Shown here piece after piece: positions 1,829 through 63,134 of a stretch of 64,000 bases of DNA. This DNA is from Paraspadella gotoi. Its lineage: Eukaryota > Animalia > Chaetognatha. Numbering within the stretch: position 1 is the first letter of the stretch; every line of letters begins with the position of its first letter. The stretch covers positions 15,416,105-15,480,104 of the forward strand of contig CM119267.1 of NCBI GenBank assembly GCA_051294375.1, in the 5' to 3' direction. The notes under the pieces are model-generated. The model searched no databases, was not told where the DNA came from, and was given only the letters and a program-made list of their open reading frames with translations. A program made the position numbers and the translations under genes.

Positions 1829-2229
1829 ATTTTCAAGTTTTGCCTCGCAAGAAGCGATGCTCTGGGTAATTAATATTTAATAACTTTCCTTCCTGAACAT
1901 TGGCTGGCAGTAAGGATACGAGTTAAGCAAAGGTGAAAATAAAATGTGAACGATTTAGGTTGATATGGCGGGTAAAGGAAACATTAAGTATATCGAACAA
2001 CTTAAGCCGAGATATCACGAATATTGATAAAAACAAAGAAAGAGACCAGCTATTATGATTTCATTCAATTAAAATGCGCGAGGAATTCAAAGAGAAATGT
2101 GTGTATGCATGTGTGGCGAACGCCTAAGTCGCCTCACGGTTCCATAAAATCTATTCCTCGATTTCTTATTAAAATAAAATAACGATAAATAGCGACTAAA
2201 CTACAACACCGACGACGACGACGATAAGA

Positions 2230-5200
2230 CTAGGATTGGATTTGTTGCTCAGGGTCGTGATGAGAATATTTAACCATTTGCTGCTGCAACAGAGCGATTG
2301 TTCGATCCTTGGAAGCCAATTTTTGACTCAGGAAAGCCATCTGGTTCCTGTAGACAAAGGATAGGTCAATTGACAAGAAACAAACATTGCGGTAAGAGTA
2401 TTACAACAAATAATTCGGTCAATAACCTCAGCTCTTGATTTTCTGCAGCGAGGGTTTCCGGATCAGTAGTAGTAGACTCGATTAGTGTGGCGGGGTCAAA
2501 ACCAGGATGAGATTCGTTCATCGGAAAGTGCGCCGAATGTCTCTTGGACATCTGAGTTTTAAACGTCGGAAGTAAATTGTTGCAGTTGCTACAGTGGCTG
2601 GAGGGCCAGAGAAAAGAGCGAGCGTGACCAGGTGAGGCCGCGGGTGAGTAAGCCTGAGAAAATAAAAAATACTACTAAATTATAAAATTAAATGGTTTTG
2701 TTTTTTCATAATAATAGCTTACCACGGCACTGAACTCATCCTGCTGTAATATCCTCTTCAATTTGAACAACATGGTTTTCATGGAAATAACGTCCTGGAG
2801 AGAGCGACGATACGTGACCCCATCCAACACGAACGCCAGCCCGTCCGGGTCGGGTTCAATCGGAAGAGACTTGGGAGGTCGGAATTTGGGCAGCGTGGTA
2901 GCGGGGGCGGACCATCTTGGCGTGGCAGTGGCGGACAGCGATCGCCCGCCTCCCTTCGCGCCCAGAGGAGAAGCCGTCCGGGATACCTCGACGACGGAGG
3001 CGCAGCGCTGTTTAAGCACGGGCGACGCCGACGACCCTTGTTCAATCGCATCCTTGTCGACGCCTCGAAAGGCAGTCACTTTGGAGCAGGACCAGACGCT
3101 GGGATGGCTATCCATCAGACCTCCGTTGGAGGGTCGTGACGACGATGACGAGCCCGACGTTTTTTTCTTCGGCGAAGATCCCGCGGTGCTCGAGGAAATG
3201 TCGAGACTACGTTGAAGCAAATCCAATTCTTCCCTGATCTCGTCCAATCCGTCGAGAAAGTGTCCATCGCCGCCGCCTTCTTCATTGTACGTCATCATAT
3301 CGCCCCCGGCGAGTGATTTAGAGCGCGGCTCGGTCGCCGATTCTTTCCGTCGAGCGGGAGACGAATCTTTTCTTCGACGAAGGACGACGGGGTCGAGGGT
3401 ATCGTCGACCGAGTTGTCTACGTCGAGCATCAGGTCGTTAGAGTCGAGTGAACACGAGGACAAAGTCTCAATGTCGGGTAAGTTAATCGAACCCGCGTCG
3501 GCGTCGCTTTGAGATCGAGTCATGGGATGATCGTCAGATTCGACGAAGTCGCTGTCGCTAACGGAGCGGGATTGATCGGCAGCCTGGTCGGCGGAGGCGG
3601 AAATCCCCTTGGGAAACGCTTCTTCCTCCTCCACCGACGACCCTTTGCCCAAGTCGAGGAGATCATCGGCCCGAAGGCGAGAGATGTTAACAGATTTAGC
3701 TGCTTTGGATTCATCGTCGACACCGGCGTCCGCCTTCTTGAGGGGACTCGTCGAGCGGGAAGAGGCGCTTTCCACGAAGCTTTTTTCTTTAACGACGACC
3801 GGCGCCGATTTAAACGTCACTGATGTCGGAGGCGCGAGAGGCGTTTCCACATCTTCTTCTAGGCTGTAGCTTTGTAGAGACAGATTGAGGTTAGTCTTGG
3901 GAATGGGTGATTCTGGGTCCACGATCTCGATGTCTTCATGAGCGTCGTCGTCGTCCTCACTGATTTCCGTTTGAAAGGACCCCTCTCTCGCAGGTTCGAC
4001 CTCTTTCGTTATGAGACTAGAATTTGCAGCAATAGTTTCCTTCTCTGTCGCTGATTGAGCGACGGCGACAACCTTCTCGCTGACCATGGCGTCGCTCGAG
4101 GCTTTTTCGTCGTTCCTCACTAGGTTGTTGTTGAAGTTGAGCACGGCCTTCCTCGCGGGAGACTTGACGGGAGTATCGATTGGGCCGGCGACGTCGCTGC
4201 TCTGAAGAGAAACGAAATCCTCGGAAGAAGATGCGTCGATAAAGTTGAGACCGTCAACGGAGAAATGGTTGTTGTCACGACGGGAAGATTGCGTCGAAGC
4301 CGGTCGAGACTCGGCAATGGAATTGGAAAGAATCGCTTGGCCGACGGATTCTTCTCGATTATCCCCCATCAAAGACGCCGTCCCGGGTTCCCCGCCGTCC
4401 GCCGCGCTCTTCCCAAAACCGAAAGCCCGCGTGATCAGCTCCTTGCGAATCCGTTCGTTCGGGGACTTTATGGGAGGGGGAGCTGGGGCGGCGGCGAAAG
4501 CGCGCGAAGCGGCGGCGGGTGGCATGAGTCTGGACTTGATTCCGTCGTAACGGAACCCGAATCCAGAGTTTTTAATCTTCCCTATGCCGCCGCTCTGCGC
4601 CTTTCCACTCTTCGTAGGCTGGGGAATGGGGGTCGGGGCCGAAGGCTCAGCCGCCGAGGTTTTTTCAACTGGCTTCGGTGAGCGAACGATCCCGAATTGG
4701 AAATTACGCCCCGATTTGTTTGAGGGGATGGTGCTGTTAGGGGCTCCAACACCCAGGCTGGTGGTCCCAGAGGACTTAGAGCCGCCCAAGAGACGCGATC
4801 GCCCACGCGCCGGAATCGGAAGACCGCGAGATTTCAATGAGAGGCCCGAAGACGGCGAGGTTGTTAAACCGGGAGAGGTTGTCTCGGTTTCGGCGTCTCC
4901 ATTCGTCGAGCGAGAAGTACATTGGTTGTTGTTGATGCTGTTTTTATTGTTTCTTCGAATATTGCTACTGTTGTTGTTGTTGTTTGATCTGAAACCGAAT
5001 CTCGCTGTAACAGGAGAGTTGTCCACGGGAGTAGCATTGTCGATGGCAGCGTCCTCTAGACTCTCCACCGATGCGCAGGGGATGACTCTTCGGGGGATAA
5101 ACTGGTCTTCTAGATTTAATTCCCTCGCTGATGGTGAAGTCCCCGACGACGACGTCGCCACCGCCACTCGGGTTTTGCTTTTCGGTCGCGGGAGTCCACG

Positions 5201-5608: not shown

Positions 5609-6033
5609 TTGATAATTAAGCGATTTGGAAGGTGACAGGGAGAGGGGGATCGGCGTGGCAAAGGCGGTCCAAGGGGTCGCGTGAAAGAAGATGCGAGAAT
5701 GACTGGAATGTTTTTTCGTAGGGAAAGTTGGGCATCTCGAAAGAAAAAAGTTCCATAACTGATAACACCGTTAGAGGGAAAAGCGCTTAAAAGGTTTTAT
5801 ATAAATTATCTCTTGACTAGTACGACTTGCTGAAAAAAATAAAAAAAATAAATATCATCCAATACCTCACAAAAACAACTTCATGAACATGAAGTTAATG
5901 ATAATAAAAATAATAATTAAGTCACCTATGACTAGATCATCTAGATCAAAATTTCACATACGCGATTTGTTTTCTTAGCAGTAAATATGAACAAAAACCA
6001 GAATTAGTAATTCATGAGATTTCGAAAATTTTA

Positions 6034-8467: not shown

Positions 8468-10234
8468 TCATCGAAACCGATGTAAAGGAAAAGGTGGCAT
8501 GAATCTGGGCCGAAATCCTGGACGACGTAGAAGATGCGGCGGCGGTGGGCGGTGATTGTGAGGAATAGGAAGACGAAATCGCATATTTTGTGGCCGCAAA
8601 ATGATAGGCGTGGTGTCGCATCTCATGGGCACAGGATTTGGGGAATTATTACAGTTGACATCGTGACTCTCCTTCAATTCTGGCACCTTAGTTTCTCTTG
8701 GCTTCTCATCGGATTTGACATTTTCTACGAAGGAATTAATTACGTCCAAACGAAATGCGACGGGAATATCTGGGTCCTCGCCGAGTCGACGAGCAGATTC
8801 CAATTTTTCCAAGAATCGTCGAATGGACGCGGATGAAGAAAAAGCGAGAATAACTCTAAATATTTCTCCTTCATTAGTGCGAAGTTCGTTTTTAAATTTT
8901 ACATCGACTACGTCATGGCGCATCGCATCGTTGAGATACTTAACGTGAGCGAATTGCCTCGTCATCTCAAGCATAACTTGTAGTTCTTCGCGATAAACGG
9001 CGTCGGGAGAGCTTCGAAAGGGCATTGATAAAAAATTCTTCATAGCCGCTTTCGCCTTCTCCCTTTCTTCGACGGTGGCGTATTGTGGATTGTATTCAGT
9101 TTCGGCGTCTCGAGAAACCTCGATCTCTTCGTCGCTGAAGAAGACGTCATAGGGTGCATTTTGAGCGGAGTTGGCCGAGTCGAGGTTCAGATTGACCGCA
9201 TCGGGGTTCGAATCCCCCGCATCGGTGTTCGGATAAACAGCATGGAGGTTCAAATTAACCGCATCGAGATTCGGATTGACCGCATCGAGATTCGGATCGG
9301 TATGCAAGTCGATAGAAGGGGAAGATGAGTCGAAATATTGAGCCGAAGGGCCAATTAACTCAGGGTTATCATCTGAACATGGCAAAGGAACGTTTGCATT
9401 AGACTGTGAAATGACCGAATCGCGTAACGGATCAGCAGAATGTGGCAATCGAAAGCGAGAATGGGAAGAGTGTTCAGCCGTCGTATTTCCTTCTTCAATG
9501 ATGAGCGTTTCGAACTGATTAATGGTAACGAAGGAGGGCGAGGCCTCCAAAAAGCCCGATTCGCTCGAGATCGATTCTTTTTCCAGTTCAGCCGAGTTCG
9601 ATCCGTTTTCGCGTTGTAACTTTTTCTTCTTCTTTCGCTTCTTTTTATCGGCCTCCTTCCATTCCTGTTCGAGTTCATTCGGCACGGATTCAGACGAGAC
9701 AACCCCAATGGAATCGACGAGGTCGACCAGCTGTACCATCCTTGAAATTCGATCAAACACCTCCGCCTTTTTCTTGAGCCTTTGGTTCTCTTCACGAAGA
9801 CTCGCAACCATCGTTTCAGCCATCCCGATGCGGTCCTCCAGCTCGGCAGCCTCCTTCGATTTGGCCGCCTCTACGCTCGCCAGCAACGCCTCCGACAGCT
9901 CTAGCTTTTTCCGCAAAGCCTTCAATTCACCCTCGCGTGAGAAAGCTCCTTCGACAAGCTCTTCCGCGAGCAAAATCTGACTTCGGAGTTCATCGTGTTG
10001 TTCCTCGTTGTCAGACTGGAAAGAGAAGAAAAGTCGCCTGACGACCCCACGCGCGGGGTTCGTCTCGAACCGAACCTTGCAAGAGGGACAGAGCGCGGGC
10101 TGCTGTTGCGCCTGAGATTTGCGAGCCCAATCGAGGAGGCATTCCAAATGAAAAGTGTGACCGCAGGCGCACGCCGCTATGTTCTCCAAATTGTCAAAAA
10201 TTTCGAAACAGATGGGACAATTTGGTAGTTTCAT
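8468..10234 (-). CDS. Intronless RING-H2/coiled-coil E3 ligase, TRAIP-like N-terminus
   Basis: 588-aa ORF starting CPIC...CGHTFHLEC...CPSC...RRLFF followed by a coiled coil; the C-terminal half is not recognisable. Confidence 0.75.
   Translation of the reverse strand: MKLPNCPICFEIFDNLENIAACACGHTFHLECLLDWARKSQAQQQPALCPSCKVRFETNPARGVVRRLFFSFQSDNEEQHDELRSQILLAEELVEGAFSREGELKALRKKLELSEALLASVEAAKSKEAAELEDRIGMAETMVASLREENQRLKKKAEVFDRISRMVQLVDLVDSIGVVSSESVPNELEQEWKEADKKKRKKKKKLQRENGSNSAELEKESISSESGFLEASPSFVTINQFETLIIEEGNTTAEHSSHSRFRLPHSADPLRDSVISQSNANVPLPCSDDNPELIGPSAQYFDSSSPSIDLHTDPNLDAVNPNLDAVNLNLHAVYPNTDAGDSNPDAVNLNLDSANSAQNAPYDVFFSDEEIEVSRDAETEYNPQYATVEEREKAKAAMKNFLSMPFRSSPDAVYREELQVMLEMTRQFAHVKYLNDAMRHDVVDVKFKNELRTNEGEIFRVILAFSSSASIRRFLEKLESARRLGEDPDIPVAFRLDVINSFVENVKSDEKPRETKVPELKESHDVNCNNSPNPVPMRCDTTPIILRPQNMRFRLPIPHNHRPPPPHLLRRPGFRPRFMPPFPLHRFR
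9175..9300 (-). repeat. Coding 21-bp tandem repeat (PNLDAVN-like heptads, about 6 degenerate units)
   Basis: accgcatcgagattcggattg-like units repeated; protein DPNLDAVNPNLDAVNLNLHAVYPNTDAGDSNPDAVNLNLD. Confidence 0.8.
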
Positions 10235-10471
10235 TATAATAATTACGTAGTAAATACACTGAGCATAACTTCATGAAAGCGCTTTCGGTTTAGAACTAGA
10301 AAAAAAAATTGCAACAGTGTAATTCCATTAGTTTGCACATTTAACTACATTTAATTAAACTTAACTATATCAGCTGTGAATGCTCAGATTAATGAATCTT
10401 TTAGTGAAGGAATGATGAAGAGTTCGGAAGTGAGGTCAACCGTCTCTGTATGTCTCCCTCTAAATTAAAGT

Positions 10472-11595
10472 TTAATCGTTGACTTTTTGGAAGTATTTGA
10501 GCTTGTCGCTTGGGTTGGGGATGATGGTGTCGGCCCCGGGTTTCCATCCGGCAGGGCAAACCTCTCCGTGCTTATCCGTGTATTGAAAAGCCTGCACGAG
10601 GCGAAGCGTTTCGTCGACTGACCGGCCGACAGGTAGATCGTTCATCGTAATTTGCCTGAGCAAATACATAATTTATTAATAAATTCAAAAAAAGAAGCAA
10701 AAGGCAAAGAACGATTAAAATAACACTTTTTTTTGTTGTAAAGATACCTCAAAACACCCTTGTCGTCAACGATAAAGAGACCACGAAGCGAATGACCCGC
10801 GTCCTCCAGGTAGACCCCGTAATCTTTGGAGATCTTGTGCGTCAAGTCAGACAAAAGAGGAATATCCAGGCTCCCCAATCCGCCATCTTTACGAGGAGTC
10901 TTTATCCAGGCCAAGTGCGTGAATTGAGAGTCGACAGAAACGCCCACAACTTCCGCGTTGATAGCTCGGAATTCTTTAGCCCGATCACTGAAAAAGAGCG
11001 GAAAAAATGACGTGAAAAATATTTGGTTTAGAAAAACTAACCACTGACAAGTAAACACACTCGACAATTGATAATATTAATGAAATTGGTACAACCAATA
11101 TAAAAATTATCCATTCATTTAATAGATAAGCGATCTTGCCCCTGACAGGCTTTGGGGGTTTAAGGCCTCCATCACTCTTACAAAAAAATTACATAGCAGG
11201 TCCCTGCAAGCTTTCAATCAAGCCTCTCTTACAATCTCTATCAATAAAGTGGTATAATTTTTAAAAACTACCAACCTGAAGGCAATAATTTCCGTTGGAC
11301 AAACGAAAGTAAAGTCGAGCGGGTAAAAGAAGAATACCAAATACTTTCCCTTGAACATGTTGAGATTTAAGTCCTTGAACTCAGCGCCGACGACTGCGGT
11401 GCCTTCCCAATATGGAGCCGGCTTGGAAATAAGCGCCTTGCTCACTGAAAGCTGATGCGATCCGGCGCGGGGCTCTTGCGGGTAGACGAGACCCTCACCG
11501 AAAGAATGGCACGCCTCATCGCGACCAATCGCCGTCGCAAAATGGCAGGCAATCAACAAATTCGCCAAGGCGAAAATGATGAGACGCCCCTCCAT
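10472..11595 (-). CDS. PRDX4: Peroxiredoxin-4 (ER/secreted 2-Cys Prx)
   Basis: Signal peptide, [15 protein letters not shown] and GEVCPAGW motifs, three exons. Confidence 0.93.
11081..11240 (-). repeat. Dispersed repeat copy in PRDX4 intron 1
   Basis: Reverse complement of the core of the 54901-55811 unit (tgaaattggtacaaccaata...aaggcctccatcactcttaca...gtccctgcaag). Confidence 0.85.
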
Positions 11596-11804
11596 GGTGT
11601 TTAGATTGCTTTAAAATGTTATCTTTAAAAAATGTGATGACAAAAGAAAATAATGACTAGACGAAACATTAATTTCTCACAATGGACCAAAAACGACTTG
11701 ATGAAAAATGAGAAACTTACGTAGATCTTAACACAAATTCCTCCAAAAGATAAGATTTTCTATGACAAGGTCACTTGAACTTTGAATCGGAATCGGTTTT
11801 CACG

Positions 11805-14186
11805 TCAGGCTGATTTGGAAATAGTTTCTACCATTTCTTGGAGCAATTGCTTTACTTCATCTACTTCATCTAAGCTTCGACTGGATAAAATTAGTTGGGA
11901 ACCAAGATCCGAATCTTCGTTGTAAGTCTTGTCAGATTGAATTCCGCCCGCGAATTCTTCACCGTCCGCAACCTCATCCGATTCCTCAATGCCTTTTTCC
12001 GACGGAAACAGCTCGGGAAAAATTTCCCGTGCAAACATGTTCCTGATCTTCGTCTGATCAACGGCGTGGCAATTGGTCTTGTGGACGTCGCCGACGCCCA
12101 ACCCGACGGCTTCGGCGACCCTTTGCGAGGGAAACAAGCACTTGTAGCACTTAAGCACGTTGGGAACCAGCACGTCGCAGAAGAGCACGCAGAGACGCTT
12201 GAAGGCGGCCGTTTCGGGCTCGTCGAGGGCGTTCCTTAGATCCTCAAAGGTGGCGACGAGGACGCCTGCCAGATCGAGAAGAAGCGTTGCCAGGGCGTCC
12301 TTTGTCTGAAAGAGCAGAGTGATGGTCGCAGTGGGGCGAAAATCGTTGAGGGCGTTAATGATGTCGTTGTAGAAGGAAGCGAGAGGAGGAAATTCGAGCA
12401 GAGAGAGAGGAGGAGCGGGAGGAGCGTTGGAAATGGCGGCTACGTTTTGGAAAGATCCTTCAGAGGTATCGGCGCCCGAGACGAGATCAAAGCTTAAAGC
12501 AAGAACGCCGCCCGAAGCCGCCATCGACGTAGAGGCGGGTTCGGAGGAGAAAGAAAGCACTTTAAGGTCCTCTTGGAAGTTCCGAAGAGCGCCGTCCAAT
12601 GAACGAACGAAAAAGGCAAGGGCAGTCTACAAAGAAAAAAATTACGAGAGTAATTGTTACAGTGTAGCGTACCTTGTTACTAATTTTTTTTTTTTTTATA
12701 AAAAACGGCATTTTTTTTATCAAGACCAAACCTCCTCAAAAATAGGAACGAGCAAAGGTCGAAGATCAACGCCGACTCGGCCGAAACTAAGACCGAAGTA
12801 CATGCACTGACTGGCCACGGCGTCCAATCGCGAACGGAGCGACGGCGAAGCCAAGTCTTTTTTCAATGTCGATAGAAACGATTCGACTTTAACTAAAATC
12901 CACGAATAAAGAATGGAGGAGTCGTTGCAGACCGTCGACGGGGCGGAACCTAGAGACAGACGACAGGTTGTATTGTGGTCAATTCACAAAAAAAATTGAC
13001 AAAAACCCTATAAACTTATATTGAGAAATGTTGCATCGTATTTATTACCCGCGGCGGTTCTTTTGACGTTAGCCCTGACTTCGTCGTCGTCGGTAAAGAT
13101 TGCTTTGTACTGGGTGATAATGTCGAAGAAGTGGATGCGAGTTACGTCGATAGTTTTCATCAAATGGTTATATGCGTCGTCCGAGGGAATGCTGGATATT
13201 AACCGAATTAAACATTTTAACTTTATTTATTTATCTACTTAATCTCTTTACTCTTTACCCAGAGAGAATCGTTTGGAACCAAGAATCCCTGGCGTTAAGG
13301 AATAAAACTCGAAGCTCAGTTTCGGAAAAAGCGTCGAGCCGTCGAATGTGTCCGATCACTTTCAAACAGACTGGAAGAGTTAACTGCGCCGTCCTCAGTT
13401 GGGCGATCAGTTGGCCAATCATAGACTGGATACAAGCGCGAACTTCGTTGAGAATGCTTCGGACCTGAATACAATGGATTCCCGATGATCAAAAGGCCAT
13501 AGGCAGCTCGCGTCTCTTTCGTCTCATACCAGCGGGATGTGAGAACCGTGTTTCTTGTCCATGCGTCTTATATAGTTGGCCAGTTCCAGGGCCTCGTCGA
13601 AATATCCGTTCTTGACGCAAGTGTCGATCAGTTGAGGAATCTCTAAGATCTCTAATAACTGAGTATGTTTCTGTAGAATTTGACCGTTAAGCTGAAATGA
13701 AAAAAATACTAAGAGTTACTTGAAGGCCTTGAAAACATATTAAACTCATAAGTAGCTAACCTTCCTCTTTTTGCTAATTTCCTCGGCCTGAACTTGAAAA
13801 TCTTTGCAACTGGTAGTGCAAGACGGAAGTTTCTCGTCCAACATGGACCCCAGTCGAGCTTCCACACCGACGAAGTCTTCAAAAATTTCTTTGGAGCATT
13901 CTTGAAAAAAAAAATGAAGCGTAAATCCAAAATTCAGACGCAATAACAATTACATATGAAAAGTTTGATGACGCTTACCGGCTGTCTGAATAAAAGTTTT
14001 GTAGTTTTGACTCGCTAAGTCTTTAGTCTCCTCCAAGATAGCGCTACGTTCTTCGGAAAGGCGTTCCGGTTCCTTCGTGAGGCGATCGAGACCGAAGGAG
14101 CTTAGTTGTGCCAAATAAGCGGAAATCTCCGGATTGAGGCCAATCCTCGAGTCTAGGCTAGACAGGAATGAAGTGCTTTCTTCCAT
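11805..14186 (-). CDS. COG8: Conserved oligomeric Golgi complex subunit 8
   Basis: Spliced exons give [82 protein letters not shown]. Confidence 0.92.
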
Positions 14187-14342
14187 TTTTTAAATTAACT
14201 TCTGAAACAGAACAATATTACACAAAATATCTATTTTCTCAATGCTCTAGCAAAAATTTTTGAACTTAAAAATGAAAAGGGCCAAAGAAATTTAACGACG
14301 ACAAGTCTCAAATCCAACATTAACATCATCGTCGGCCTTCTT

Positions 14343-16061
14343 TCACTCGTCGGGAACCTCGATCTCGCCGTCGTTGATCTTGTCGATGACGTCGTGCGGC
14401 GCCATTCCGTCGATGGAGCAGCCGATGGACTGCGCCGTGCCGAGGATTTCCTTGACGGTGCCCTCCAGGCGGCGCGCCATCGAACGCTCACGCATAATGC
14501 GGGCGATGTTGAGGATTTCCTCGAAGGAGACGTTGCCGCTGTGCTTGATGTTCTTGACCTTCTTGCGGTCGCGAGGCGGCTCCTTGAGGGCACGAATGAG
14601 AAGGGCCGAGGCGCTGGGGACCACGCTTACCTGCGCCTGGCGATTCTGGATGGTCAGCTTGACGGTGATGCGGAGGCCTTTCCAGTCCTGCGTCGCCTTG
14701 GCGATGTCATCTCCGACTTTTTTCGGAGATAGACCTGGGAAAAGTAACAATGATAAATATTTTTAAAAAATATTTTATTTTAAAAGAAATTGGTAAGAAG
14801 ACTCCTCACTAGGGTGAAGTGAAAGTTTGGAATCAAAATTTAGCAGTTATATCTTGAACACTATCATATTAGTGAATACTATTACTAATCTGTAGTTATT
14901 TTTTTTTTACAAATATAAAATGTCAAAATTTCAAAATGTTTTTTTTTAAATTCTGAGAACAGATTCAGATTCCTTGTTAAAAGTTGATGAAGGAAAATAT
15001 AAATCTTAAAATTTAAAAATTTGCATTTTGAAATTTTAGCTTATTATATACATATATATATACTTACTACTATATATAAATGTAGCTCACTAGTGCCCAC
15101 TAAAGTATAAAATTAACAAGTTTGCGCAATGTCGGATCTGCCCACGATCATTATCGGTAATTAAATAATTAATAATTAATTAATTAATTCAAGTTAAGTA
15201 ATTAATTAGTCAATTAAATAAATAAATTGATCCAAAATGTTTGTTTTAATTGATAAATTGACGGATTATTAATAATTGATTAATTAATTGACTAATTGAT
15301 TAATTAACTGATTAATTTATATATCTTACATTTACATTTAATATAAAAAGAAAAAGTAGCATAATCAATTAGTGAAACAGGTTTTTTTTTCATTTAAACT
15401 CATTTCCACGATTCAACGATTCCTGTTGGACAAACATTGTCCAACATTCCATCGAAACTTGATTTCCAGCTTAATCACACATTTTCTTACCCACATACAA
15501 ATTTTTAGGTCAATTGCCCCATCCACTTATGAGTAATTGGTGTTCAAATAATGAAATATATTTTTTTGTTTTTTCCATTAAAACTCATTTCCACTCGGAC
15601 GATTCCATCGAAACATCATATCCAGCTCAATCACACACTTCCCTAACCACATACAAAATTTCATTCCAATCCATCCATCGAATCACGAGTAATTGGTGTT
15701 TTTTGTTAAGGACGGACAGACAGACGGACATCGTTTTTTTTGCATAATTTATCATAATTCGATGTTTTGACATGAAATAAATTAATGCCCGACAAGATTG
15801 AGGGGGCGGACCGACGGACCGACAAAGTGAATTATAGAGTCGGGATCTTCTTATAAGCAGATCCGACTAAAAAATAAATTTACCAGAGTATTTTTATTGG
15901 TTTTTATGTTTATGTTTTATACATTTTATCATTTTCACATCACTCTACTCCTCACCCAAAGGTCCGATCTTGGGAGCCAGGGTGGCGGTGGCTCCGACTT
16001 CACCTCCGACGGCGCGAAGGCACACGACCTTGATTTCGTTGGGGTCGAACTTGGGAGGCAT
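14343..16061 (-). CDS. RPL12: 60S ribosomal protein L12 (uL11)
   Basis: Exon 16061-15956 [11 protein letters not shown]...LAPKIGPLG joined to exon 14734-14343 [14 protein letters not shown]... Confidence 0.97.
15115..15874 (+). mobile_element. Non-autonomous Helentron/DINE-1-like element (HINE) in RPL12 intron
   Basis: Starts AACAAG; subterminal inverted repeat GTCGGATCTGC 15131-15141 / GCAGATCCGAC 15857-15867; 3' hairpin 15838-15868 followed by an A run; GACG/GACA microsatellite; internal core duplicated (~15390-15545 and ~15570-15700); second copy at 18887-19454. Confidence 0.65.
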
Positions 16062-16072
16062 TTCGTCGTTCA

Positions 16073-16103
16073 GGCGAAAAAAAAACAGCGAAAAAAAGGC
16101 AGG
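16073..16103 (-). promoter_or_regulatory. 5'TOP/TCT-like pyrimidine tract upstream of RPL12
   Basis: Minus strand cctgcctttttttcgctgtttttttttcgcc ends 11 nt before the ATG; typical of ribosomal protein transcription starts. Confidence 0.5.
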
Positions 16104-16472
16104 TGTCGGATGACTGACAAATTCAGACGACCGAAAACGTTGCACCTGTTATTTCTTTCGCTAAAGTTTTAACAAACTACAAATAGATTTTGGGTGTAAA
16201 CAGTGTATATCATATATTTATTTAACCGTTTCAAAGACGAAATAAATACAATTAAACGAAACCACTTCTAATTCTAAAGCTGGAATTTGTTTTTTTACTC
16301 TTTCACAAAAAAAAAAAATAAAAATAGCGTCAAGGTGCAAAATTAACGAAATGAAGCCCGGAGTGCTAGTTCAGCGGGTGCTACCGACGTAAAAAATACG
16401 AATACCACAATTTCTTTCCCCAACTAGAAAAAAAAAACCTGCTAAAAGCAACCTACGTTAACTAAATATTTT

Positions 16473-20199: not shown

Positions 20200-20358
20200 T
20201 GTATGTCAATTCTATACAACACCTGAAGGAAAAATACTATATATATACGTAAAATAAAAGTAAATTTCAAACAAATTTCAACGTTTTTTTTCCCATTTCT
20301 CAAAAAAAGAAATAACAAATGGAATGACATTTTAGTATGGCACGACATATTGTAATGT

Positions 20359-23300
20359 TCACGACACGATCCTGGTGTCCGTATGCAGTTTCTGAAACCT
20401 TTTGAGTCGCCTGACCATGGCGAGTAAGAAACTAAACCTGTTGTTGGATTTAGCGTGAATCTGCTCGATCTCGGAGAGTTTTTTAAACAGGCCGTTACTG
20501 CCCAGATTCTTGGCCACTTCGCTTTTCAAGGCATTTAACTCCTGGAAGGTCAAATTGGTTTGTGATTCTGGAACTCGTTGCTCTTTGCCGGCAAGGATCC
20601 CGCCAACGGATCGCAGCGGGTGCTGTTGCTGCGGCAGATATATGGCGGCATCGGCGTCGACGGGCGAGCACCTCATCAGATAAACGTCGAGATGACGCCA
20701 CAGCAAGAAAACCAGGTTTTCCATCACTCCAAGCAATAGAGATCTCTGCTCGCTAACGGCATCAATGAGTTCGTCGAGTCGTTTGGCGGCGACCAACTGA
20801 CGTTCACCTGCCGGAATTTTTTCGTCCGTGGCAGCATCGAGCGAGGATGATGACGTGAGCTCTTGCAATTCGTCGCCGCGAAGATCCTGGACGGCTTCGC
20901 GCTTGCGGACGAGACGTTGTAAGTGGTCGCTGGTTGATAGAAAAAGGGTTGAATAAGTCTGCAGATGGTGCAGCGGCAGCGCAAGAGAAGGGATTTGCCC
21001 GCGATTAACGTAAGTCGTAGATATGTCACTTGGCGATTCATTGAAGGTAGGCGAAAAGACGAGGCGCGGAACCGTTCCGCCGGAATGAGCCAGAGACGAA
21101 AAGTAGGACAACACATTCGAGGCTACCTGCAAAATACCTAAGTGCAAACAGGATGTCCCGCCGAGATTCTCTCGTGATTTTAGAGAGTTTAGTGTATGCT
21201 CGGAAAGAAAGAAGCGAGGGAGGAGCGCCAACATTTGTCTCTCTATCCAACCTAATTGACTCATGAATTGCGGGGTCAGAGCCTCGTCTTCAAGAAAAGA
21301 ACCATCGGCGCCGTAAATGGAAGCTTTTGCTAGTACCGCCGTGACGACGTTGATCTCGTCCACGTGGACCATTTCCCATTCGTCGTGTCGCTCGCGCAAG
21401 ATAGAATGAAACGTCTCGGCGTGGGCAGCGACCATCAGCATCAACTTGGGCGCCGCCTGACGCCCGAGGGAAGTTAGAAGTGCCAGGCAAAGTTTCAAAG
21501 CTGGCATAAAGAGTTGTCGAAAATTGGCTACTTCGACAGCATCATGGTCGCCTGGTGAACTTTCTGGTCGCATGTCCAAGAACTTGCAGCAAGCGAGACG
21601 ATCCAATGCTGCAGCGTGGAGTACCGCCGACGCGCCAACGGTGGAAACAGTCGCCATTCGTATTAGCAAAGCTAACTTGGCTTCATATATGTATAAAGAT
21701 TTCGAAGCGGCTGCTGACTTTGTGCTCGGAGCCAGGAGAGATTGTAGAACTAAATCTTCTAACAAAAGGCTATCAACCAAGTGCTGCAAATAACCTTGGT
21801 TTGCCAGATAATGGATGATATTGTTCTGCTTATCAATGGCAACCATCGCATCGAGAAGAGAAAGCGCTAACATCTTTCCCACATGATGAGCATCGCATGC
21901 GTCGCGAGCAACCATTTCTAGAAAATTATCTCCAAAACTGTTAATGACATTTGCGTTTTCCACGCATAGTTTTTCAACGTCCATGGCCATTGCGCCAGAT
22001 TTGCTAAGAGAGGTTGGAAAATCGGCAATGTGTAAGTAGTTTAGCATCGCTCCGTAAATATTGGCGCGCTCATTAGGCAAAGTTCCGCCCGGCTTAAGCA
22101 CCATCTGAATTAACCCTTTTAATACGACAAGAAGCTGAGATGCGGATATTCCAAGATTGACAAAGAGACCCTGGGAAAAACCGGGTCCCATCCCTCGAAT
22201 TGCTGTGCGGTCTAGCATTGTCTTTTCAGTACGTTGCGTTGAGTCTTTTGCATTCATTGCTTTAAAACTCAATTCTGAAATTGCAGATGTAATTGAGTGA
22301 CGTAAATTTGCAACGAGAGTCAAGACAACACCGGCAGCAGGAGAAACTAACTCAGGAGCGCTATTGGAGTCAAGAATCTTCATCGTAAGGTGCTGCAAAA
22401 TCAGGAGAATAATGGAATTCTTAGATTGACCTTGGAGCCCATGAGATTCAAGTGGGCAAGCGGTAAGGAGTATCTCTGTCACTTGACGCCAAGCTTCAAA
22501 GGCTTGTTGCTGGCAGTGCATGTATTCTTTAGATTTGTTCTGTGCCACAACATGGTCAAGCAACATCTGAATTTCTCCTTTTATTTGTTGGCGAGGAGGT
22601 TGCGGATATGCAGATACAGGAGATTTTCCGTCGACAACAGTCTGGGACGGATATTGGGCAAAACCAGCATTTACTTCATTAAGAAGAATAGCGTGTAAAC
22701 TCTTAACATCACAGAGAACCAGGCCGGATTCCAACTGCAACTGACACGATCCGATAAGCTTTTCCAATGCCGTCAAATCAAACATATTTAACTCTGGAGG
22801 TTCTGGGATTTCAAGAGCAAAATCGATGGTATCCAGAATTTGCAGCAATTTCGGACGAAGCTGATTGCCACTGGTCACCATATCATTGATTGTCATTTGT
22901 GAACGGGCCAAAGCTTCAACAGCTAAAACACTAGCCTCCTCTGGACCATCTCGTTCTCCACTCATTAACCCTTGGGGGAATGCACTGCCAGGGGCCGAGC
23001 ATGATAATAACAGTTGAATGAGCCGTTGGTTGTGCGATCGTTGCTTACTCACAGCTGTTAGACGTAATTCTAAGGCAATAGTCTTAAGAATCCATGATTG
23101 CTGAACGAGAAGAGAAATGGGATTAAAATTGCGTATGCTAGGGGTAATTGTTGGGAGATATTGTAAGTGATTAAAGAGAAAATCTGATGAAGATCGCAGG
23201 TACCGCAAAACAGGATTACAAGTCTTTGGTTGAGAACAAATTATGTAAAGAATATGAAAGCCTATTCGTGCAGACTTATGCATGAGAACTTTTCCTTTTG

Positions 23301-26300
23301 CCATGATTGAGGAAGATGTTAATCCACGACCCAACAACGCTATGATGGCATGAAGACATGTTAAGGGAGATCCTAAAACACCAGCATCCTGAAGTTCTGC
23401 CTTGTTTGTTGGCTTCTTAGTGTCAAAACCTAACAAAAAATGGGCGAGATTTGGCGAGGGATGATCTATAAGACTCTCGAGTATGAGCTGTAAAATATTT
23501 TGGCGAGAAGCGACTCTTTGAGCAATTTCCGGATCAGAATCTTCTGATATTTGATCACTTTCCTCAGCTTCTAAACATTCAACAAATCCATGAAGTATTT
23601 CAGCAGAAAGTTTGAAGGAAGTCAGCAAAGAAACGAGCTCTTTTTGCATTATGGGACTTTTAGCAATAGATTTGATGATCTCAACAGCACAAAAAGAATG
23701 TTCTGGCAGGCTCATATTAAAAGTTATGAATATAGAAATGGTTGTAATATGGTCATTGGCCCCGGTCCGAGGGTTAATAGTAGTCAATAATGAATCTAAC
23801 TTGGTTAATAGCAAGGGAGATCCGGTCTCTCGAATAGCATCTAAAAACAACTGCTGTTTTTCTAACGTTGTTACTATTAGTTTTAAAGCATAAATTGTTG
23901 CCATTTTCTGGGCTTCAGGCGTAATCGGAGGATAGGCAAGCATCGATGAGCTAATTTCGAAGAGTAAAAGTAATATTTTTTTAAGCAACGCCCCATCTGT
24001 CAACAGATGCACCATAAGAACGAATCCTGGCGGTTTGGCAGATTCAACACTTCCCAATCCTTGCACTTCAACTGTCTGTTCTCCGAAGTGCTCAATAGCC
24101 ACCTCATATTGATTCAACAACTTTAACAAAATTTTCAAAACAGCAGTAGCTATTTCCCACTTTTGATTTGCATCTTTGTAAGCTCTTTGATCAAACTTAA
24201 GAAAGACTTCATTGATGAGGTACTCAAGATACGGACCAAAGCCTGGAATTCTCATTCCAGCGCCCAAGGCAGAAGGAATAGGAATATCTGTGAGAACATC
24301 GAGAAGTCGAATAAAGGCTAAAGTTATGGGGTACTCTTCGTTCCGCGACTCAACCTCCAATAGTTCCATTTCTATGTCTGAGGAACGCTCAATCTTTTTC
24401 ACAGTCTGAAAAACTTGCGACGCTTCCAAAGCTTGCCAAAGACTAAGGGCTACTTCCGGCATTGAGGCAAAGGCAGAAAGGACGTCAAACAGCGCTGCCT
24501 TTAAATTTGGTGGCACGGAGCATCCGGCCAAACCGAGAAACAACACGGCTACTGAGTAACGAGGATCTTCAATCAGCGACAGGCGTGCTGCCTCGTCATG
24601 GCGAATCACGACCTCCATAAGTCGCAAGACAGCTAATAAACCATCGAGCTCCTGACCGCTGATACTGCCACCTAAACTGGCACGTGTACCAGATGTGGCA
24701 ACAGAGGCCTCGTGTCTTAAGGCTACGAAATATTGGTTGAGGGATGAGAAAAAATGATCCCACGACACTGAAGATCCATGCGTCCCTTTTAAGTGCGAAC
24801 CCTGAGATCCATTGACCTTCAATAAATTGTTAACATGTTTAGCCGAGTTTCTTCCGTTGGCAAGACCACGAAGCATTCGTAAGTAAGGGACAAAGATTGA
24901 CGGGTATAAGAGCTCGCCGCTGGAGCGGACAAATTTGTGAAGAGAAACTTGACGTTGGGGTGGCGTCGAAGAAGAGACAGGTCGGGAGAATGTAGATGAG
25001 AAAGATGAAGGAATCAAGGATGATGAAAACGCGGTAGAAAGGTTTAGGTCGGAGCCTTGGGTTGGACACCAATATTCAAGGGAGAGCTCTAAGCCAAGAG
25101 GATCTTTTGAGTAGAATTCGCCTATCACTTCCAGAAGATTTTGAAACTCTTTTCCAGCGGAAGCAGAGGCGTTGGTTGGTGGATCGCGACCTTCTTGAAG
25201 GCAGGTCAGAAGAGTACGGGCGTGTTCATCAGCGCGATTTCTAAGTTCTTTTAGCTTCGCGGGCATTTGAACAATAAGATCGGTGATGAGGCGATGGACA
25301 GCTCGCTGGAAAAATTCGTCCCCTGTTAGAGGAAATTAGAAATTAAATAAGGAAATTAAATTATTTCAAGTAGCAAGCACTATAACTAGTCGAACCGTAA
25401 AAGGCAGATGATTTAAGAATGCCTTCCATAATGAAATCTAGAGCGCCATTGGAAAGTCCTTGCTCGACAATGGCTTCATCTTGTTCCAACACTTCGGTAG
25501 CAGGCATTGGCGCCGGTGCTCCTCCAATGTTCAGCGTCGTGGACGACTGATGAAGCCCTCCCCTATTTGACAATTGACGAAGCGCTAAGCCCCACGCTAA
25601 TTGGACGACGCCCAAGGCGCCCACTGAATTCCAGGTCGTTGTTGGACCAAGGCACAGCTGATTGTGAATCTGAATGTAAAAATTTAAATATTACAGGTAC
25701 CAATTAACAGGTATTTTTTAAAAAAATTTCCGACTTATGTTACCTGTTTCATGTATTCTACGTTGGACGTCATTGGCAGACGTTGCAAAATTTCGTCCGA
25801 ATCCTCTGAGGATTCGAGAATGGAAACGTCGACGGCGTAAAGACAACTCATCAACAGAGTAAGCGACATTCCGCCTAAAAAAAAAAAATCAATAGACGAC
25901 TATCGAGACTATTCAGACCAAAATTTTCCCTCGCGAACCCATGGAGGCGTCGACGCTGGAAGATAAAACGTCCCGCTCCCTGAAAAAAGCCAACAAGCGC
26001 TTCGTGTCCTCGAGATTCAATCCAGTTTGGGCGGAGAGTGCAAAAATGATTTCTGTCATGGCCAATCCGCTGTCGTAGTAGATATCTCGAACCTGAAAAA
26101 ATTCAAATGAATTGTTAAAATTTCAATTTTTTTTCCATTTTTACTTAAATAGTGTTCGTTCGTTAAAAAAATAAAAAGCACCTGCTTCCTGTGCTTAGGT
26201 AGACCGATCCCCCTTTCGGAACTCAGCTTTTCTGACTCGGCCACCCAATCGAAGGCGCAGACGAGATCGAGCAGCTGACCGACGATTCCGACGGCCACCA

Positions 26301-27320: not shown

Positions 27321-27499
27321 GAGTTTTTCGTTTTACGGGCGTTGTAAAATATCTGAATTGAGAATTACAATCAAAAATAACAAATCGCTTTGACTATAAA
27401 ATTTGATATTATAATTTTATAAGAACGAATGAACAAACAAAAAACAGTCAATTAGTAACTCTTAAAGTTAGACTTAATTTCTAAAATATCGTTTCCCCT

Positions 27500-30607: not shown

Positions 30608-31104
30608 TCTGCTCAAGGCAACACGTCGGCCTGCTAAGATTAATTCCTATTAGATATTTGAATATGAAAAGACCAGCAAAAGTTGGAGCTCAAGCTTCAG
30701 AACGTGTAACGGAAGATTTTATGGTTCGTGCCATTATCTGAAAACGGCACGTGAAGGCAAAAAAATGAAGCCGTTTTTGTTTTCTTAACAGAGACCAACA
30801 AGGCTGCCTTTTTTGAGCCGACGCCATTGAACAACAAATTTAATCTTCTGAAACAAATGAACGTGCAAAGGCCCCAAAAATTAATTCCGCGACTAGGATA
30901 GCTTATCAAGTGTAAAAAAACACTTAAAAGTGAACTATGGTCATTAAAACTGAAAATCACTAATTCAAGTTGAAACAACCTGTCGAGCCATATATTAAAT
31001 AAAAACGATCCAATGATTCAGTCTTGATAACGCAAGGAATACAATTTTCCGGCCTAAACAAAAGACGTTTTGCTGACTTAGGGTTTGCATTGTGAGACTT
31101 AGTA

Positions 31105-31234
31105 GGGCTATCTTGCCCCTAACTTTGGATAGGCTTTGGTGGTTGAAGGCCTCCATCACTCTTACAAGATAATGATATAGTCGGTCCCTGCAAGCCTTCA
31201 ATAAAGACTGTCACAGTCTCGTTCATTCACTCCC
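31105..31234 (-). repeat. Dispersed repeat copy between ORC3 and the POLR1G-like gene
   Basis: gctatcttgcccct...aggcctccatcactcttacaagataatga...gtccctgcaag...cacagtctcgtt.attcactccc is the reverse complement of the 54978-55108 core. Confidence 0.85.
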
Positions 31235-34463: not shown

Positions 34464-34893
34464 CGTATCCGACAGTCTAGCTTTTTTTCAAAATTAACTG
34501 CGATAGTTACGATTCCTTCGATTCTCAAAAGTTACAACTCGTTACAACTTTGTCAGTAAATCGTACTCATCTAAAAAAACCGCAATATTTTAAGTTTCTT
34601 AGTTTTATTTCGAAATGAAATCAACGTATCCTAAAAAGACAAGCATAAAATAAGAAGATGAAAAGTAAAATGTATTTTTTGTTTGGTACGTAACAGAACA
34701 CATGCGCAAATACAATTTTTTTGCCAGAAAAACTTTAGTTTAATTAATCTACGTATATGCGTTAAAACGGACAAAACAAAAAAGTCTTTCAATTGACAAT
34801 TAGGCCTTTACTCGTTTTGGCAACTAACTAAAAGTAAACAAACCGACTCAAAACAGTCTTCGCCGAAAGTAGGCGAATTTAAAAACGAATATA

Positions 34894-37051: not shown

Positions 37052-48520
<11,469 letters not shown>

Positions 48521-49348: not shown

Positions 49349-59204
<9,856 letters not shown>

Positions 59205-59314
59205 AATTTTAAGTGACTTCTAAAAAGAAAAAAAATAACGGACACCAAAACCAAAACAAATAATATTACCAATTGACGTAGTTCGTATTGTATTGAAAAA
59301 AACTTTTTTCAATC

Positions 59315-60493
59315 TCAAAATATTATCTGATAATCAAATTTGTAAAGTTGACTCGTCGCCAATATTTTCAACGTCCGATGCAACATAACGGCGGTCAAAC
59401 CCCATATTTTGTGTTCATATGGTTCTCCGTGGAGAGCTGGATACACTGGAAGTACGTAGCCATTAATTTCTTTTCGGATGAATTTTCTAAAAGAAACAAA
59501 ATTCTCGCCGGCCATCTCCAAATAAACTATATTGAGAAAAATGAGAGATTTCATTCACCCGGTTTCGCCACTAGGAACCTTCGTGATTCTTTTGGATCGA
59601 AATTTGGTGTAGCGAGAATTTTTGGGGTCGCATAACGAGGCAATCGTTCGATGGAAAAAAACGTCCACCTCAGCCGGATTCGGTTTTAGGTGGGAGATTT
59701 CAATGTCGCAGAAACCTAGCGGCGAAAAAAAGGATACAAAATTAAATACTAAAAAAAAAAAAAAATTTCGGCAAACAGATTCCATCACGAAGCGACCCAT
59801 AACCTAAAACCGGAGTGGTAACGGTTTGACCTTCGACACGACCAGGCATTCGCGGCAACGTTCCCCAAACGTCGACTCTCTCAGGAGGTATTGCCAATTC
59901 TTCCTCGGCCTCGCGAAGAGCCGCTTTCACCGAATCTCCACCATCCTCCTCGTCTTCCATTCCTCCGGGAAAACAGACTTCTCCTGAAATAAAATCTACG
60001 TGGTTGCGTCGTGCGACAGTCACGACAAAAACTTTCGCGATGGATCCGCTGAGTCGCTGACCTCTGTGACGGCTCAAGTCCCTCGACCGCAAAGTGAAGA
60101 TGATAGAGGGCTCCGCGCCTACGAGGCACATGGGAATGAGGACCGCGCTCCTTCGCGCCGTCCTATCTTCGCCCTTGGACGCGTACGAGGCCGGCCATTT
60201 GGGAATCGTTCGGCGCACACGCTCCTTGTTGTCTTACGGAGGTGAAGGAATATCGATTTTTTTTGCTTCGCAGACTTTCTGGGGATTTTCTCTCTGGCAC
60301 GACAAATTTATTTTTTCACTTGCGTCATTTTATGTTCGTCTTGGAGGGGAAATAAAATGTGCTTACCATTTGAAAAAATGTTCGTAAAAGTCAGCGGCTG
60401 TTTGTAACTGCTCGTAGAGTAACAACAACTCGCACAACCGCCCATCGATCTGATTTGAAGATTTTCAATGGTCGAAAACATTTTGAGGGCCAT
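59315..60493 (-). CDS. NUDT8: CoA-diphosphatase Nudix hydrolase, NUDT8-like
   Basis: SAVLIPMC, FTLRSRDLSRHRGEVCFPGG, AALREAEEEL Nudix box, PNPAEVD, IWGLTAVMLH. Confidence 0.8.
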
Positions 60494-60745
60494 GGGATCT
60501 TAAGTTTTTAAGACAGCTTTCAGTTCATCTGTAAGTATCGGTAATAGAAAAAATAGAGATCGCTAAAATATGAAAAACGATCAAAAACTGGGAGCATAAA
60601 AGCAAAACGTATAACCTTCCCATTACATTAGCTATCACTTGAGACCGTTATAAAGATTCTGAATTGTTATGATTCATCTAGGATTTCCGAGTCATTGCAA
60701 GCCCGCATTTAAATCAAAAGGCCTTATATCTTTCACTTTATTCAA

Positions 60746-62864
60746 TCACAAGACCACAAAATGGTTCTTATCGACTACGTCCGCGACGACAGGTCCTTTC
60801 GAGTCGAAGGGTTTCGTAGCTTCCACGATTCCCCGCACCGCTTCCGGCGTCAGCTTTTTGGCGGAATCTTCGACGGTCGCGTTGTTGACGTCGATGCCGT
60901 GGGAATTGTCAGCGTTTTTGATAAGACGCTTCCACTGTTCGTTAGTCTAGGAACATAAATCGCCGAAATTTAAAACTATAGAGAGGATTAATATACAAGA
61001 TATATATATAATAAGATAACATTATATATAAAGTATATGAGGAAAAAAAGGATTTGTTTCTTAATGAGGCCACCTGCTCGATGATGTCGTGGGCAAACGC
61101 TCGGTTTTTTGCTTCTCCATTGAAGGCAAATTTGTTTTCGGGTTTTCCGTCGGGCATTTTGTAAATGCGGAACCATTCCACGGTGGCGGCAATGAAGCCT
61201 GGAAGGAGAAATTGCAGTTATCGATTTTCATCATGAAGCGAATTTTTCGGGTTGTCTTGGCCAGTTGTTATTAATGTGGATACCAGGCATGTTCTTCTCA
61301 ATGTCGGTGATGTCGTTGAGCGTCTTCGCCAGCGGATCGTTGATGTCTATAGCAAGAAGCTTCCAGTCCGTCTCTCCGTCGTCGATTAGAGCTAAAGTTC
61401 CCAACACCTTCACCTTAACAAGTATATAGTATAATATTATATTGTGAAATTAGCACTTTAATACTAAAAGAAAGAGAATTTCAAGGAAGAAACTTTCGAT
61501 GAACCAAAGGAATGAGCAAAGGAATAAGCTACATAAATAGGTAAATTTGAAAACTCTTACCTGAATGACGTCTCCGCGCTTGCAGACGCGTTGGCCGATC
61601 TCGCAAACGTCGATTGGGTCATTATCGCCGCCTTCCTTGGTGTTAGAATCGATGTGGTCGGGGTCTTCCCACGTTTGGGGAAGAGCTCCGTAGTTCCAGA
61701 TGTAACTTATTAAAATTAAAAAAGTATGTACGTAAAGGCAAAAAGGTTATAGAGCATTTTCGTTAAATTAGCCGACAATATTTTTACCCGTGGTGCGGAA
61801 AACAATTGTGAACAAATCTCAGTTTTCCTTTTTTTTCGTCTTGTTTAATCGGATTAAGTTTCTCTTTCGTTGCGATCTCCATCTAAAAATGTGAATGGTT
61901 GGAAAGGAGGAAGAGAAGAGATTAAATCGATTGTATCGTTTTTTAAAGTTAAACATTTTGAAAGCCAGCAGAAAAAGAGAGAGCTAGCATGATAGGAATA
62001 GAAGACAAGGCTTGGCTCTTAAAATTCGGCCAAAGTGAGCAAACAAGAGCCGGATTCTCTGGGTGACCAAATCAGAGAGATCCGAGTGAAACCCAAAACG
62101 CTATAAGAAACGGTTACAGGCGATACAAATTTTGGGAGATGAAATTTCTCCCCGCGCCCACCCGCCCGATTTCACGACCCTTATTCTGTCCCTGGCTAAA
62201 ACGTGTCGCCGCAAGGCTACCTTATTTCCGTTCATAATGTAAACAAAGAGGGCAGACAAAGAGCGAGTGGCTTCAATGCGCAGTATGCACATTGCACCAT
62301 CTACACGGATTAATAAGTAAATTTTTTAAATCAAATTACACCACACAAAAAGGACAAAATAACTCCAACGGATACCTTGGCGTTGGTCCACCGAGGAATT
62401 TCGACAACCATGTTGAAGGTTTTGTTTTCTTTATCCGCATAGAGAGGAATGTCGTGAAATGGGCTTAAGTATTTCCCTGAAAAAAAGATGAGATTATCTA
62501 ATTATCTATCTTATCTTACGCTTCGCGAAACCGTCTTAACGTTCTCACCGTCTCCGTCCTTGTAAAAGATGCGATAATCGGCGGTGTTGCGCTGACCCCG
62601 CTCCTCGATCGCGAAAGTAGCCATCGTTTTGGCGAGCGTGGAAGAGAAAAACGAGGATAAAGTCGAAGGGAATCGACTGGTCTCGAAAAGAGGACGACGA
62701 GGAGGAGGATGAGTAAAAAAAGTCCTCTTCGATCCCGAGACTGATGAGAAGGGATTCGCCGTAAAAACGACGGAGGCGCCTTCGTTGCGAGGAAGGAAAT
62801 AAACCGGCAAGCGCCGCGCGGAATTCCAGACTCCGTTAAAAGAGAGTAAAAGACCGAAAGTCAT
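60746..62864 (-). CDS. Family I inorganic pyrophosphatase (PPA1/PPA2-type)
   Basis: [78 protein letters not shown]; stop TGA 60746-60748. Confidence 0.95.
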
Positions 62865-63134
62865 CGGCGAATTTAGGCTGCATAATATGCATATGTATCT
62901 TAAATGATTAGAATCTCGTCGGAAGCGCTGGAACCGATGAATAAATTAAAGGCGTATCACCGGGTAAAATAGTTAAGGAAAAGGAGAAGAGAGAATCATG
63001 AAAAAAATTAAGAGACTGGAACATGTTCAATTAGCACAAGAAAACAAAATAATTGGGAAAAGGCGCGACAGGATTTTTAAAATAAATTCTTTAGTTTCGG
63101 GGTGTATTTTTAATTTCTTTTTCCTCTGCTTGGG

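What the first reader, a model, noticed from the sequence alone, without database searches (positions are those of the whole stretch)
1862..62879. Splice-acceptor-like sites just before start codons (putative trans-splice sites)
Seen on the minus strand, AG position and distance to ATG: COG8 tgttctgtttcAG 14202-3 (15 nt); GAA ttttctttttAG 59220-1 (15 nt; both are followed by AAGT); PIN1 tttttccttcAG 20223-4 (23); NUP205 ttctcaattcAG 27353-4 (32); POLR1G-like taatcttagcAG 30631-2 (23); PPA attatgcAG 62878-9 (13); NUDT8 atacttacAG 60529-30 (35); LRRC42 taattacccAG 1862-3 (33); PRDX4 ttttttaaAG 11623-4 (27); ORC3 atcgcAG 34498-9 (34). For COG8, PIN1, NUP205 and the RING gene I see no good donor at intron distance in the gap. 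ZDHHC and RPL12 lack such a site and may head units. Caveat: AG is common and some of these sites are weak.
Basis: partly seen in the sequence, partly recalled or inferred. Interest (0 to 1): 0.75.

Follow-up and report, generated by a model that had tools for sequence, protein, structure and literature searches.

The report
Arrow-worm spliced-leader sites in operons
In spliced RNA, two tightly packed genes switch at the predicted AG to letters absent from the DNA there (read directly at one gene, inferred at the other) that match the end of the known arrow-worm spliced leader, so these are likely ordinary trans-splice sites of arrow-worm operons, a mechanism already published.

Summary
RNA could be laid on 2 of them (one run, contigs).

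PRDX4's contig joins the genome at the first base after the AG, preceded by 9 non-genomic letters, TTGTTTAAA. COG8's contig also reaches the first post-AG base at letter 10; its clipped letter, 2 mismatches and length of 1756 are what that leader predicts (inferred).

The 9-mer ends 25 of 26 published chaetognath spliced leaders (PMC2481426 Table 3). COG8 RNA runs to 1 base before PRDX4's AG; RPL12 RNA ends 16-32 bases before COG8's.

The other 8 sites are untested. Acceptor signal is enriched before genes with gaps under 300 nt (p 0.001-0.002, post hoc split), but not over all 16 genes by summed score (p 0.07-0.34). PPA and ORC3 are weak and have usable upstream donors.

The scan noted such an operon earlier on other DNA of this genome (e1-10588163). 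The taxon is inferred, not tree-tested.

The parts
11623..11624 (-). PRDX4 trans-splice acceptor AG; RNA carries the leader TTGTTTAAA joined to 11622
   Evidence: record 1 aligns from 11622 at its letter 10 with 0 other letters; 9 loose letters listed in table 7
14202..14203 (-). COG8 trans-splice acceptor AG (first AG of a CAG-AAG pair); same leader inferred
   Evidence: record 3 letters 2-232 = 14209-13979 with 2 other letters; the leader predicts mismatches at 14210, 14204 and 14202 and a total length of 1756, as observed
11625..11804 (-). COG8 3' untranslated RNA, covering the pyrimidine tract of the PRDX4 acceptor and ending 1 base before its AG
14204..14236 (-). RPL12-COG8 junction: RPL12 RNA ends at 14236 (X1), 14221 (X3) or 14220 (X4), 16-32 bases before the COG8 AG
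   Evidence: records 4, 16, 20
8468..16085 (-). likely operon RPL12 - COG8 - PRDX4 - RING gene (stop-to-ATG gaps 156, 209, 237 nt)
   Evidence: polycistronic precursor not seen
10259..10297 (-). two candidate acceptors of the RING gene (ATG 10234): 10296-7 (6.3 bits) and 10259-60 (1.6 bits); untested
   Evidence: the PRDX4 contig length puts its 3' end near 10290 if colinear (arithmetic only)
20223..20224 (-). PIN1 predicted trans-splice acceptor (8.6 bits, no donor in the 159-nt gap)
   Evidence: no RNA laid
27353..27354 (-). NUP205 predicted trans-splice acceptor (6.3 bits, no donor in the 179-nt gap)
   Evidence: no RNA laid
   Evidence: gaps 179 and 159 nt; names
30631..30632 (-). candidate acceptor before the POLR1G-like ORF (6.0 bits; 832-nt gap with a modest donor at 30979)
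   Evidence: untested
59220..59221 (-). GAA-like (GH31) predicted trans-splice acceptor, the strongest site (9.8 bits, 110-nt gap, no donor)
   Evidence: no RNA laid
60529..60530 (-). NUDT8-like candidate acceptor (6.1 bits), directly followed by a two-codon upstream ORF
   Evidence: untested
62878..62879 (-). PPA candidate acceptor, weak (3.5 bits); a donor-like site at 62960 would make an 83-nt cis intron; a stronger AG lies at 62928
   Evidence: untested
49349..64000 (-). predicted operon: syntaxin-like (name from my reading, no Pfam hit) - PPA - NUDT8-like - GAA-like (gaps 270, 252, 110 nt)
   Evidence: untested
34498..34499 (-). ORC3 candidate acceptor, weak (2.5 bits), in a 2.6-kb gap with good donors; not distinguishable from chance

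Best explanation
The PRDX4 AG, and by inference the COG8 AG, is where RNA gains a leader absent from the DNA there, and most other short-gap AGs are likely the same: spliced-leader (SL) trans-splice acceptors that would cut polycistronic transcripts into single mRNAs in what is likely an arrow worm (chaetognath). Shown: spliced RNA leaves the genome at the PRDX4 AG and carries TTGTTTAAA; the upstream gene's RNA ends 1 base (COG8) or 16-32 bases (RPL12) before the next acceptor. Inferred: the same leader at COG8; that the 9 letters are the 3' end of a roughly 36-nt SL donated by a separate SL RNA; that one promoter at the head of each run (for example at RPL12) drives the genes behind it; that the spliceosome joins the SL donor to the unpaired AG and so gives each downstream mRNA a capped 5' end. 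The contigs likely stop after 9 letters because SL variants diverge at the tenth letter from their 3' end.
For:: six COG8 GT-AG introns are skipped exactly, so the run is spliced RNA, and its long pieces match the window with 0 other letters apart from the COG8 5' piece. PRDX4 record: 9 loose letters, then colinear from 11622. COG8 record: letter 10 = 14201; the leader predicts that record's clipped first letter, its 2 mismatches and its length (1756); 25 of 26 SL forms in PMC2481426 Table 3 end in this 9-mer, and letter 10 from the end varies (T 22, C 2, A 1; my count from the table); 5 exact copies in the window, none followed by GT; no usable donor in the COG8, PIN1, NUP205, GAA and RING gaps; acceptor enrichment only before short-gap genes; the same anatomy is published for Spadella (3 bases between poly(A) site and acceptor) and Paraspadella (nearly half of genes trans-spliced, 18% in operons).
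Against: Only 2 of 10 sites were laid, in one run, as contigs. The COG8 leader letters were not printed. Only 9 letters of leader were seen, not the GGAAGC-type 5' part. No SL RNA gene was found (no genome held; 0 Rfam matches in the window). No contig shown bridges two genes, so a polycistronic precursor is not shown. The summed acceptor score over all 16 genes is not significant.
Confidence: 0.92

Rival explanations
1. The leader is a cis-spliced non-coding first exon lying further upstream on the same strand, shared by COG8 and PRDX4.
For: Only 64 kb is visible and no genome is held. A cis 5'-UTR intron remains plausible for PPA (donor 62960, 57th percentile, 83-nt intron), ORC3 and the POLR1G-like gene.
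Against: No copy of the 9-mer followed by GT in the 50 kb upstream. A shared exon would have to splice over whole genes. The letters equal the 3' end of published chaetognath SLs.
Confidence: 0.03
2. The 9 letters are a library or assembly artefact (adapter, template switch, allele) and the genes have their own promoters.
For: One run, contigs only, library not on record. Run X4 does show a template-switch-like oligo as a loose end (identity recalled). The 9-mer is AT-rich and differs from the genome at only 3 of 9 places at both sites.
Against: The switch falls exactly at an AG in two genes with different flanks, at the same contig letter. It matches a published SL end. Upstream RNA ends 1 to 32 bases before the acceptor, leaving no room for a promoter.
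Confidence: 0.03
3. Trans-splicing is real at COG8 and PRDX4, but several other listed AGs (ORC3, PPA, LRRC42-like, POLR1G-like) are chance AGs, cis acceptors or the wrong AG of several. This can hold together with the best explanation.
For: ORC3 2.5 bits and PPA 3.5 bits, shuffle p 0.3-0.6; stronger AGs at 62928 and 1904; 19-38% of control non-coding windows hold an equally good AG.
Against: The RNA-supported PRDX4 site is itself unremarkable by score (5.7 bits, p 0.24-0.49), so weak scores do not exclude use. About half of Paraspadella genes are trans-spliced.
Confidence: 0.5

Closest known systems
Chaetognath SL trans-splicing and the RPS14-PCNA operon of Spadella cephaloptera (PMC2481426: passages with Table 3, and section 13 read; PMC2566580: passages)
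   Same: Leader ends in TTGTTTAAA; acceptor almost abuts the upstream gene's 3' end (3 bases there, 1 base at COG8-PRDX4 here); housekeeping genes.
   Different: Other genes. The full SL form here is unknown.
Paraspadella gotoi operons (PMC12460157: passages and section 10 read; 3 supplementary files searched for these gene names without a hit)
   Same: Same-strand genes under 250 bp apart resolved by SL; housekeeping content. Six gaps here are under 250 nt even measured stop to ATG.
   Different: Whether these gene runs are among its 1,470 validated operons could not be seen; its operon table was not among the text I could search.
Ciona intestinalis operons without intercistronic DNA, and C. 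elegans SL1-type operons (PMC1488885: passages)
   Same: The upstream 3' end coincides with the downstream acceptor, as at COG8-PRDX4.
   Different: Other phylum and another SL (16 nt in Ciona). Here the exact poly(A) site is not shown, and RPL12-COG8 keeps a gap of 16-32 bases.

Membership tests
SL trans-splicing (chaetognath type) | Same leader at the 5' end of unrelated mRNAs | tested here: met
   2 of 2 genes laid: PRDX4 letters shown, COG8 inferred from clip, mismatch count and length
SL trans-splicing (chaetognath type) | Leader absent from the DNA upstream of the gene | tested here: met
   3 of 9 mismatches to the DNA at both sites; no donor-flanked copy in the 64-kb window; DNA beyond the window not available
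SL trans-splicing (chaetognath type) | Junction at a 3' splice site AG without an upstream donor | tested here: met
   junctions at 11623 and 14202; best donors at the 6th and 0th percentile of true donors
SL trans-splicing (chaetognath type) | Leader equals a full chaetognath SL (about 36 nt) | tested here: inconclusive
   only the last 9 letters seen; they match 25 of 26 published forms
SL trans-splicing (chaetognath type) | Separate SL RNA gene with donor site, in 5S clusters | not testable with these tools
   no genome held; 0 Rfam matches in the window
SL trans-splicing (chaetognath type) | Trimethylguanosine cap on the leader (general SL feature, recalled) | not testable with these tools
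   needs a cap-specific experiment
SL trans-splicing (chaetognath type) | Host organism is a chaetognath | tested here: inconclusive
   animal proteins with no close named relative; leader match; earlier unreviewed note; no tree with chaetognath sequences was made
SL-resolved operon | Same-strand genes under about 250 bp apart, downstream gene SL-bearing | tested here: met
   RPL12-COG8-PRDX4: gaps 156 and 209 nt stop to ATG, 16-32 and 1 nt between RNA end and AG
SL-resolved operon | Polycistronic precursor from one promoter | tested here: inconclusive
   no listed contig bridges two genes (contigs drop rare forms, and 686 pieces were not shown)

The most novel reading that the evidence does not exclude
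In this arrow worm the trans-splice itself makes the upstream gene's 3' end, Ciona-style, so each precursor yields either COG8 or PRDX4 mRNA but not both; and a choice between acceptors before and inside the PPA presequence (62878 or 62928 versus 62677 or 62741) switches one pyrophosphatase gene between a mitochondrial and a cytosolic form.
Probability: 0.2. Interest if true: 0.4.

Novelty: new member of a known kind. Interest (0 to 1): 0.17.

Why it matters
It confirms that unpaired acceptors before start codons can reveal trans-splicing from DNA alone, and it gives a marker for the genome's phylum. It adds operons (RPL12-COG8-PRDX4-RING and two predicted runs) to a phylum with few described ones. 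The near-zero COG8-PRDX4 junction is a handy place to test how 3'-end formation and trans-splicing compete. The mechanism itself has been in print for chaetognaths since 2008.

Tried and rejected
No whole genome is held, so there was no SL RNA gene search and no genome-wide acceptor model. Rfam gave 0 matches.

No holder on record as RNA was listed; run X1 was judged RNA from its skipped introns. Runs X2-X4 hold only small parts and show nothing at the AGs. Reads were laid on 11001-14700 only, so the RPL12 5' end and the ZDHHC, PIN1, NUP205, POLR1G-like, ORC3, GAA, NUDT8, PPA, RING and LRRC42-like starts stay open. The RPL12 contig length leaves 24 letters before the ATG; its first 9 fall on a 9-T run, so length cannot tell leader from genomic letters.

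The automatic gene predictor recovered 6 of 6 RNA-shown COG8 introns but over-called introns (155), so I hand-picked 93 acceptors and 87 donors, most of them not RNA-checked. Searches used out-of-frame ATGs for the RING and CCSER-like genes; one search corrects them, and this lowered the all-16 significance (90-nt window: p 0.002 to 0.12).

The metagenome scan with RPL12 gave 80 loci at 60-82% identity; 1 of 80 held the 9-mer, deep inside the locus. Cluster look-ups named no organism. The Xenoturbella idea found 0 papers and was dropped after the leader match. The poly(A)-hexamer scan found no consistent signal: AATAAA within 150 nt in 1 of 11 gaps. The shared AAGT after two AGs has no support as a motif: the other 8 sites differ.
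Full report
Setting. The window is from a compact, intron-rich animal genome. By my reading, 16 gene starts plus the 3' part of a seventeenth gene lie on the minus strand, and one CFAP99-like gene lies on the plus strand inside a GH31 gene. Gene families were confirmed for RPL12, NUP205, RING, ORC3, peroxiredoxin, WW (PIN1), spectrin, NUDIX and abhydrolase, and pyrophosphatase, Dor1/COG8, GH31 and DHHC. The closest named NUP205 proteins are molluscan, hemichordate and nemertean at 38-39%, so no near relative is named in that database.

Observation. All 10 AGs, flanks and distances are correct. I scored them with a matrix from 93 hand-picked acceptors. Eight of 10 reach the lower quartile of true acceptors; PPA and ORC3 do not. 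As a chosen group the ten beat shuffles (p up to 0.002), which selection alone would help produce. Over all 16 genes the summed score does not beat shuffles (p 0.07-0.34), while the count of good sites is borderline (p 0.007-0.077). The signal sits in the 8 genes under 300 nt from the upstream stop (p 0.001-0.002, against 0.79-0.98 for the rest). Donor-like sites are missing from the COG8, PIN1, NUP205, GAA and RING gaps, weak for PRDX4, and present for PPA (an 83-nt intron would fit) and ORC3.

RNA. One run, X1, holds 0.60 of the sampled words. Laid on 11001-14700, its contigs skip six COG8 introns with GT-AG ends, so it is spliced RNA of this organism or a near-identical one. The PRDX4 contig matches from 11622, the first base after the named AG, at its tenth letter; the nine letters before it read TTGTTTAAA in sense and are not genomic. 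The COG8 contig aligns from 14209 at its second letter with two mismatches, which also puts the first post-AG base (14201) at letter ten. The same leader predicts a mismatch at 14210 (clipped) and at 14204 and 14202, and a length of 1756 to the contig's end; both the count and the length agree. The COG8 letters themselves were not printed, so this is inference. No listed contig continues colinearly through either AG. A pure poly(A) tail would have matched the next genomic A, so these letters are unexplained. RPL12 RNA ends 16-32 bases before the COG8 AG (records 4, 16, 20).

Origin of the leader. The 9-mer occurs 5 times in the window, never followed by GT. A paper search for the 9-mer with 'spliced leader' returned 2 papers, one of them the chaetognath transcriptome paper. 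Its Table 3 lists 26 SL forms from Spadella cephaloptera and Flaccisagitta enflata. By my count 25 end in these nine letters, and the tenth letter from the end varies (T 22, C 2, A 1). A branch there would explain why both contigs stop after nine letters (inference). The paper states that these SLs resemble those of no other phylum. An earlier unreviewed note on another piece of this genome also calls it arrow worm and describes an SL-resolved operon. I did not test the taxon with a tree; fetched relatives were too distant.

Mechanism. Most likely a promoter at the head of a run (RPL12 is a candidate: no AG within 40 nt of its ATG and a pyrimidine-rich start) makes a precursor through COG8, PRDX4 and probably the RING gene. 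Each downstream gene has a lone acceptor, to which the spliceosome joins the leader from an SL RNA, giving a capped mRNA. The upstream mRNA is ended just before that acceptor. Where the two sites coincide, as at COG8-PRDX4, the two products may exclude each other on one molecule, as discussed for Ciona. Shown: the junction and leader at PRDX4, and the 3' extents. Inferred: the COG8 leader, the SL RNA, the precursor, the promoter and all other sites.

Comparison. Spadella has an RPS14-PCNA operon with three bases between poly(A) site and acceptor and SL genes in 5S clusters. Paraspadella trans-splices 10,197 of 21,072 genes and has 18% of genes in operons, defined by gaps under 250 bp. Six gaps here are under 250 nt even from stop to ATG. 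A search of three of that paper's supplementary files for these gene names found nothing; its operon table may not have been among them, so whether these runs are already listed is open.

Verdict. It is a new instance of a published chaetognath mechanism. Interest is low (0.17); what remains of value is the list of candidate operons and the near-zero COG8-PRDX4 junction.

Noticed in passing
window 47443, 41900, 40651, 40395, 19840 (minus): 5 of my 87 hand-picked donors are GC (AG|GCGAGT or AG|GCAAGT), four in beta-spectrin and one in PIN1; more than the roughly 1% I recall for animals. Predicted from frame continuity, not RNA-checked. A search for 'chaetognath' with 'GC-AG' found 0 papers.
   Followed up: partly
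window 51602-53763 (plus): A CFAP99-like gene (E 5e-37) lies on the opposite strand inside a large intron of the GH31/GAA-like gene; it is the only plus-strand gene I found in the window.
   Followed up: partly
window 62864-62624 (minus): PPA has an 80-codon extension that looks like a mitochondrial presequence (my reading) before a second ATG at 62624, with acceptor-like AGs at 62677, 62741 and 62780 (5.2-5.7 bits) in between: possible two-form gene.
   Followed up: partly
window 60528-60520 (minus): The NUDT8-like acceptor is directly followed by ATG-AAC-TGA, a two-codon upstream ORF that would sit right behind a leader.
   Followed up: no
window 54900-55811: 324-bp tandem repeat, 2.8 copies, 99% identical, in a GAA-like intron; it holds a dispersed element also seen near 11130-11230 and 31110-31210, which draws very many contigs of X1 in the PRDX4 intron.
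   Followed up: no
window 20359-25322 (minus): NUP205 ends in one open frame of about 1,650 codons after seven short introns in its 5' part, with lower-GC codons than neighbouring genes; partial intron loss by a cDNA copy is one idea.
   Followed up: no
window 14220-14637: Runs X3 and X4 (coded organism C) hold RPL12 pieces identical to the window over 417 and 369 letters at low depth: carry-over, prey or a mixed sample.
   Followed up: no
window 5830 and 5756-5608 (minus): A very strong acceptor (10.2 bits) lies 221 nt before the in-frame ATG of the CCSER-like gene, with an out-of-frame upstream ORF starting at 5756.
   Followed up: no
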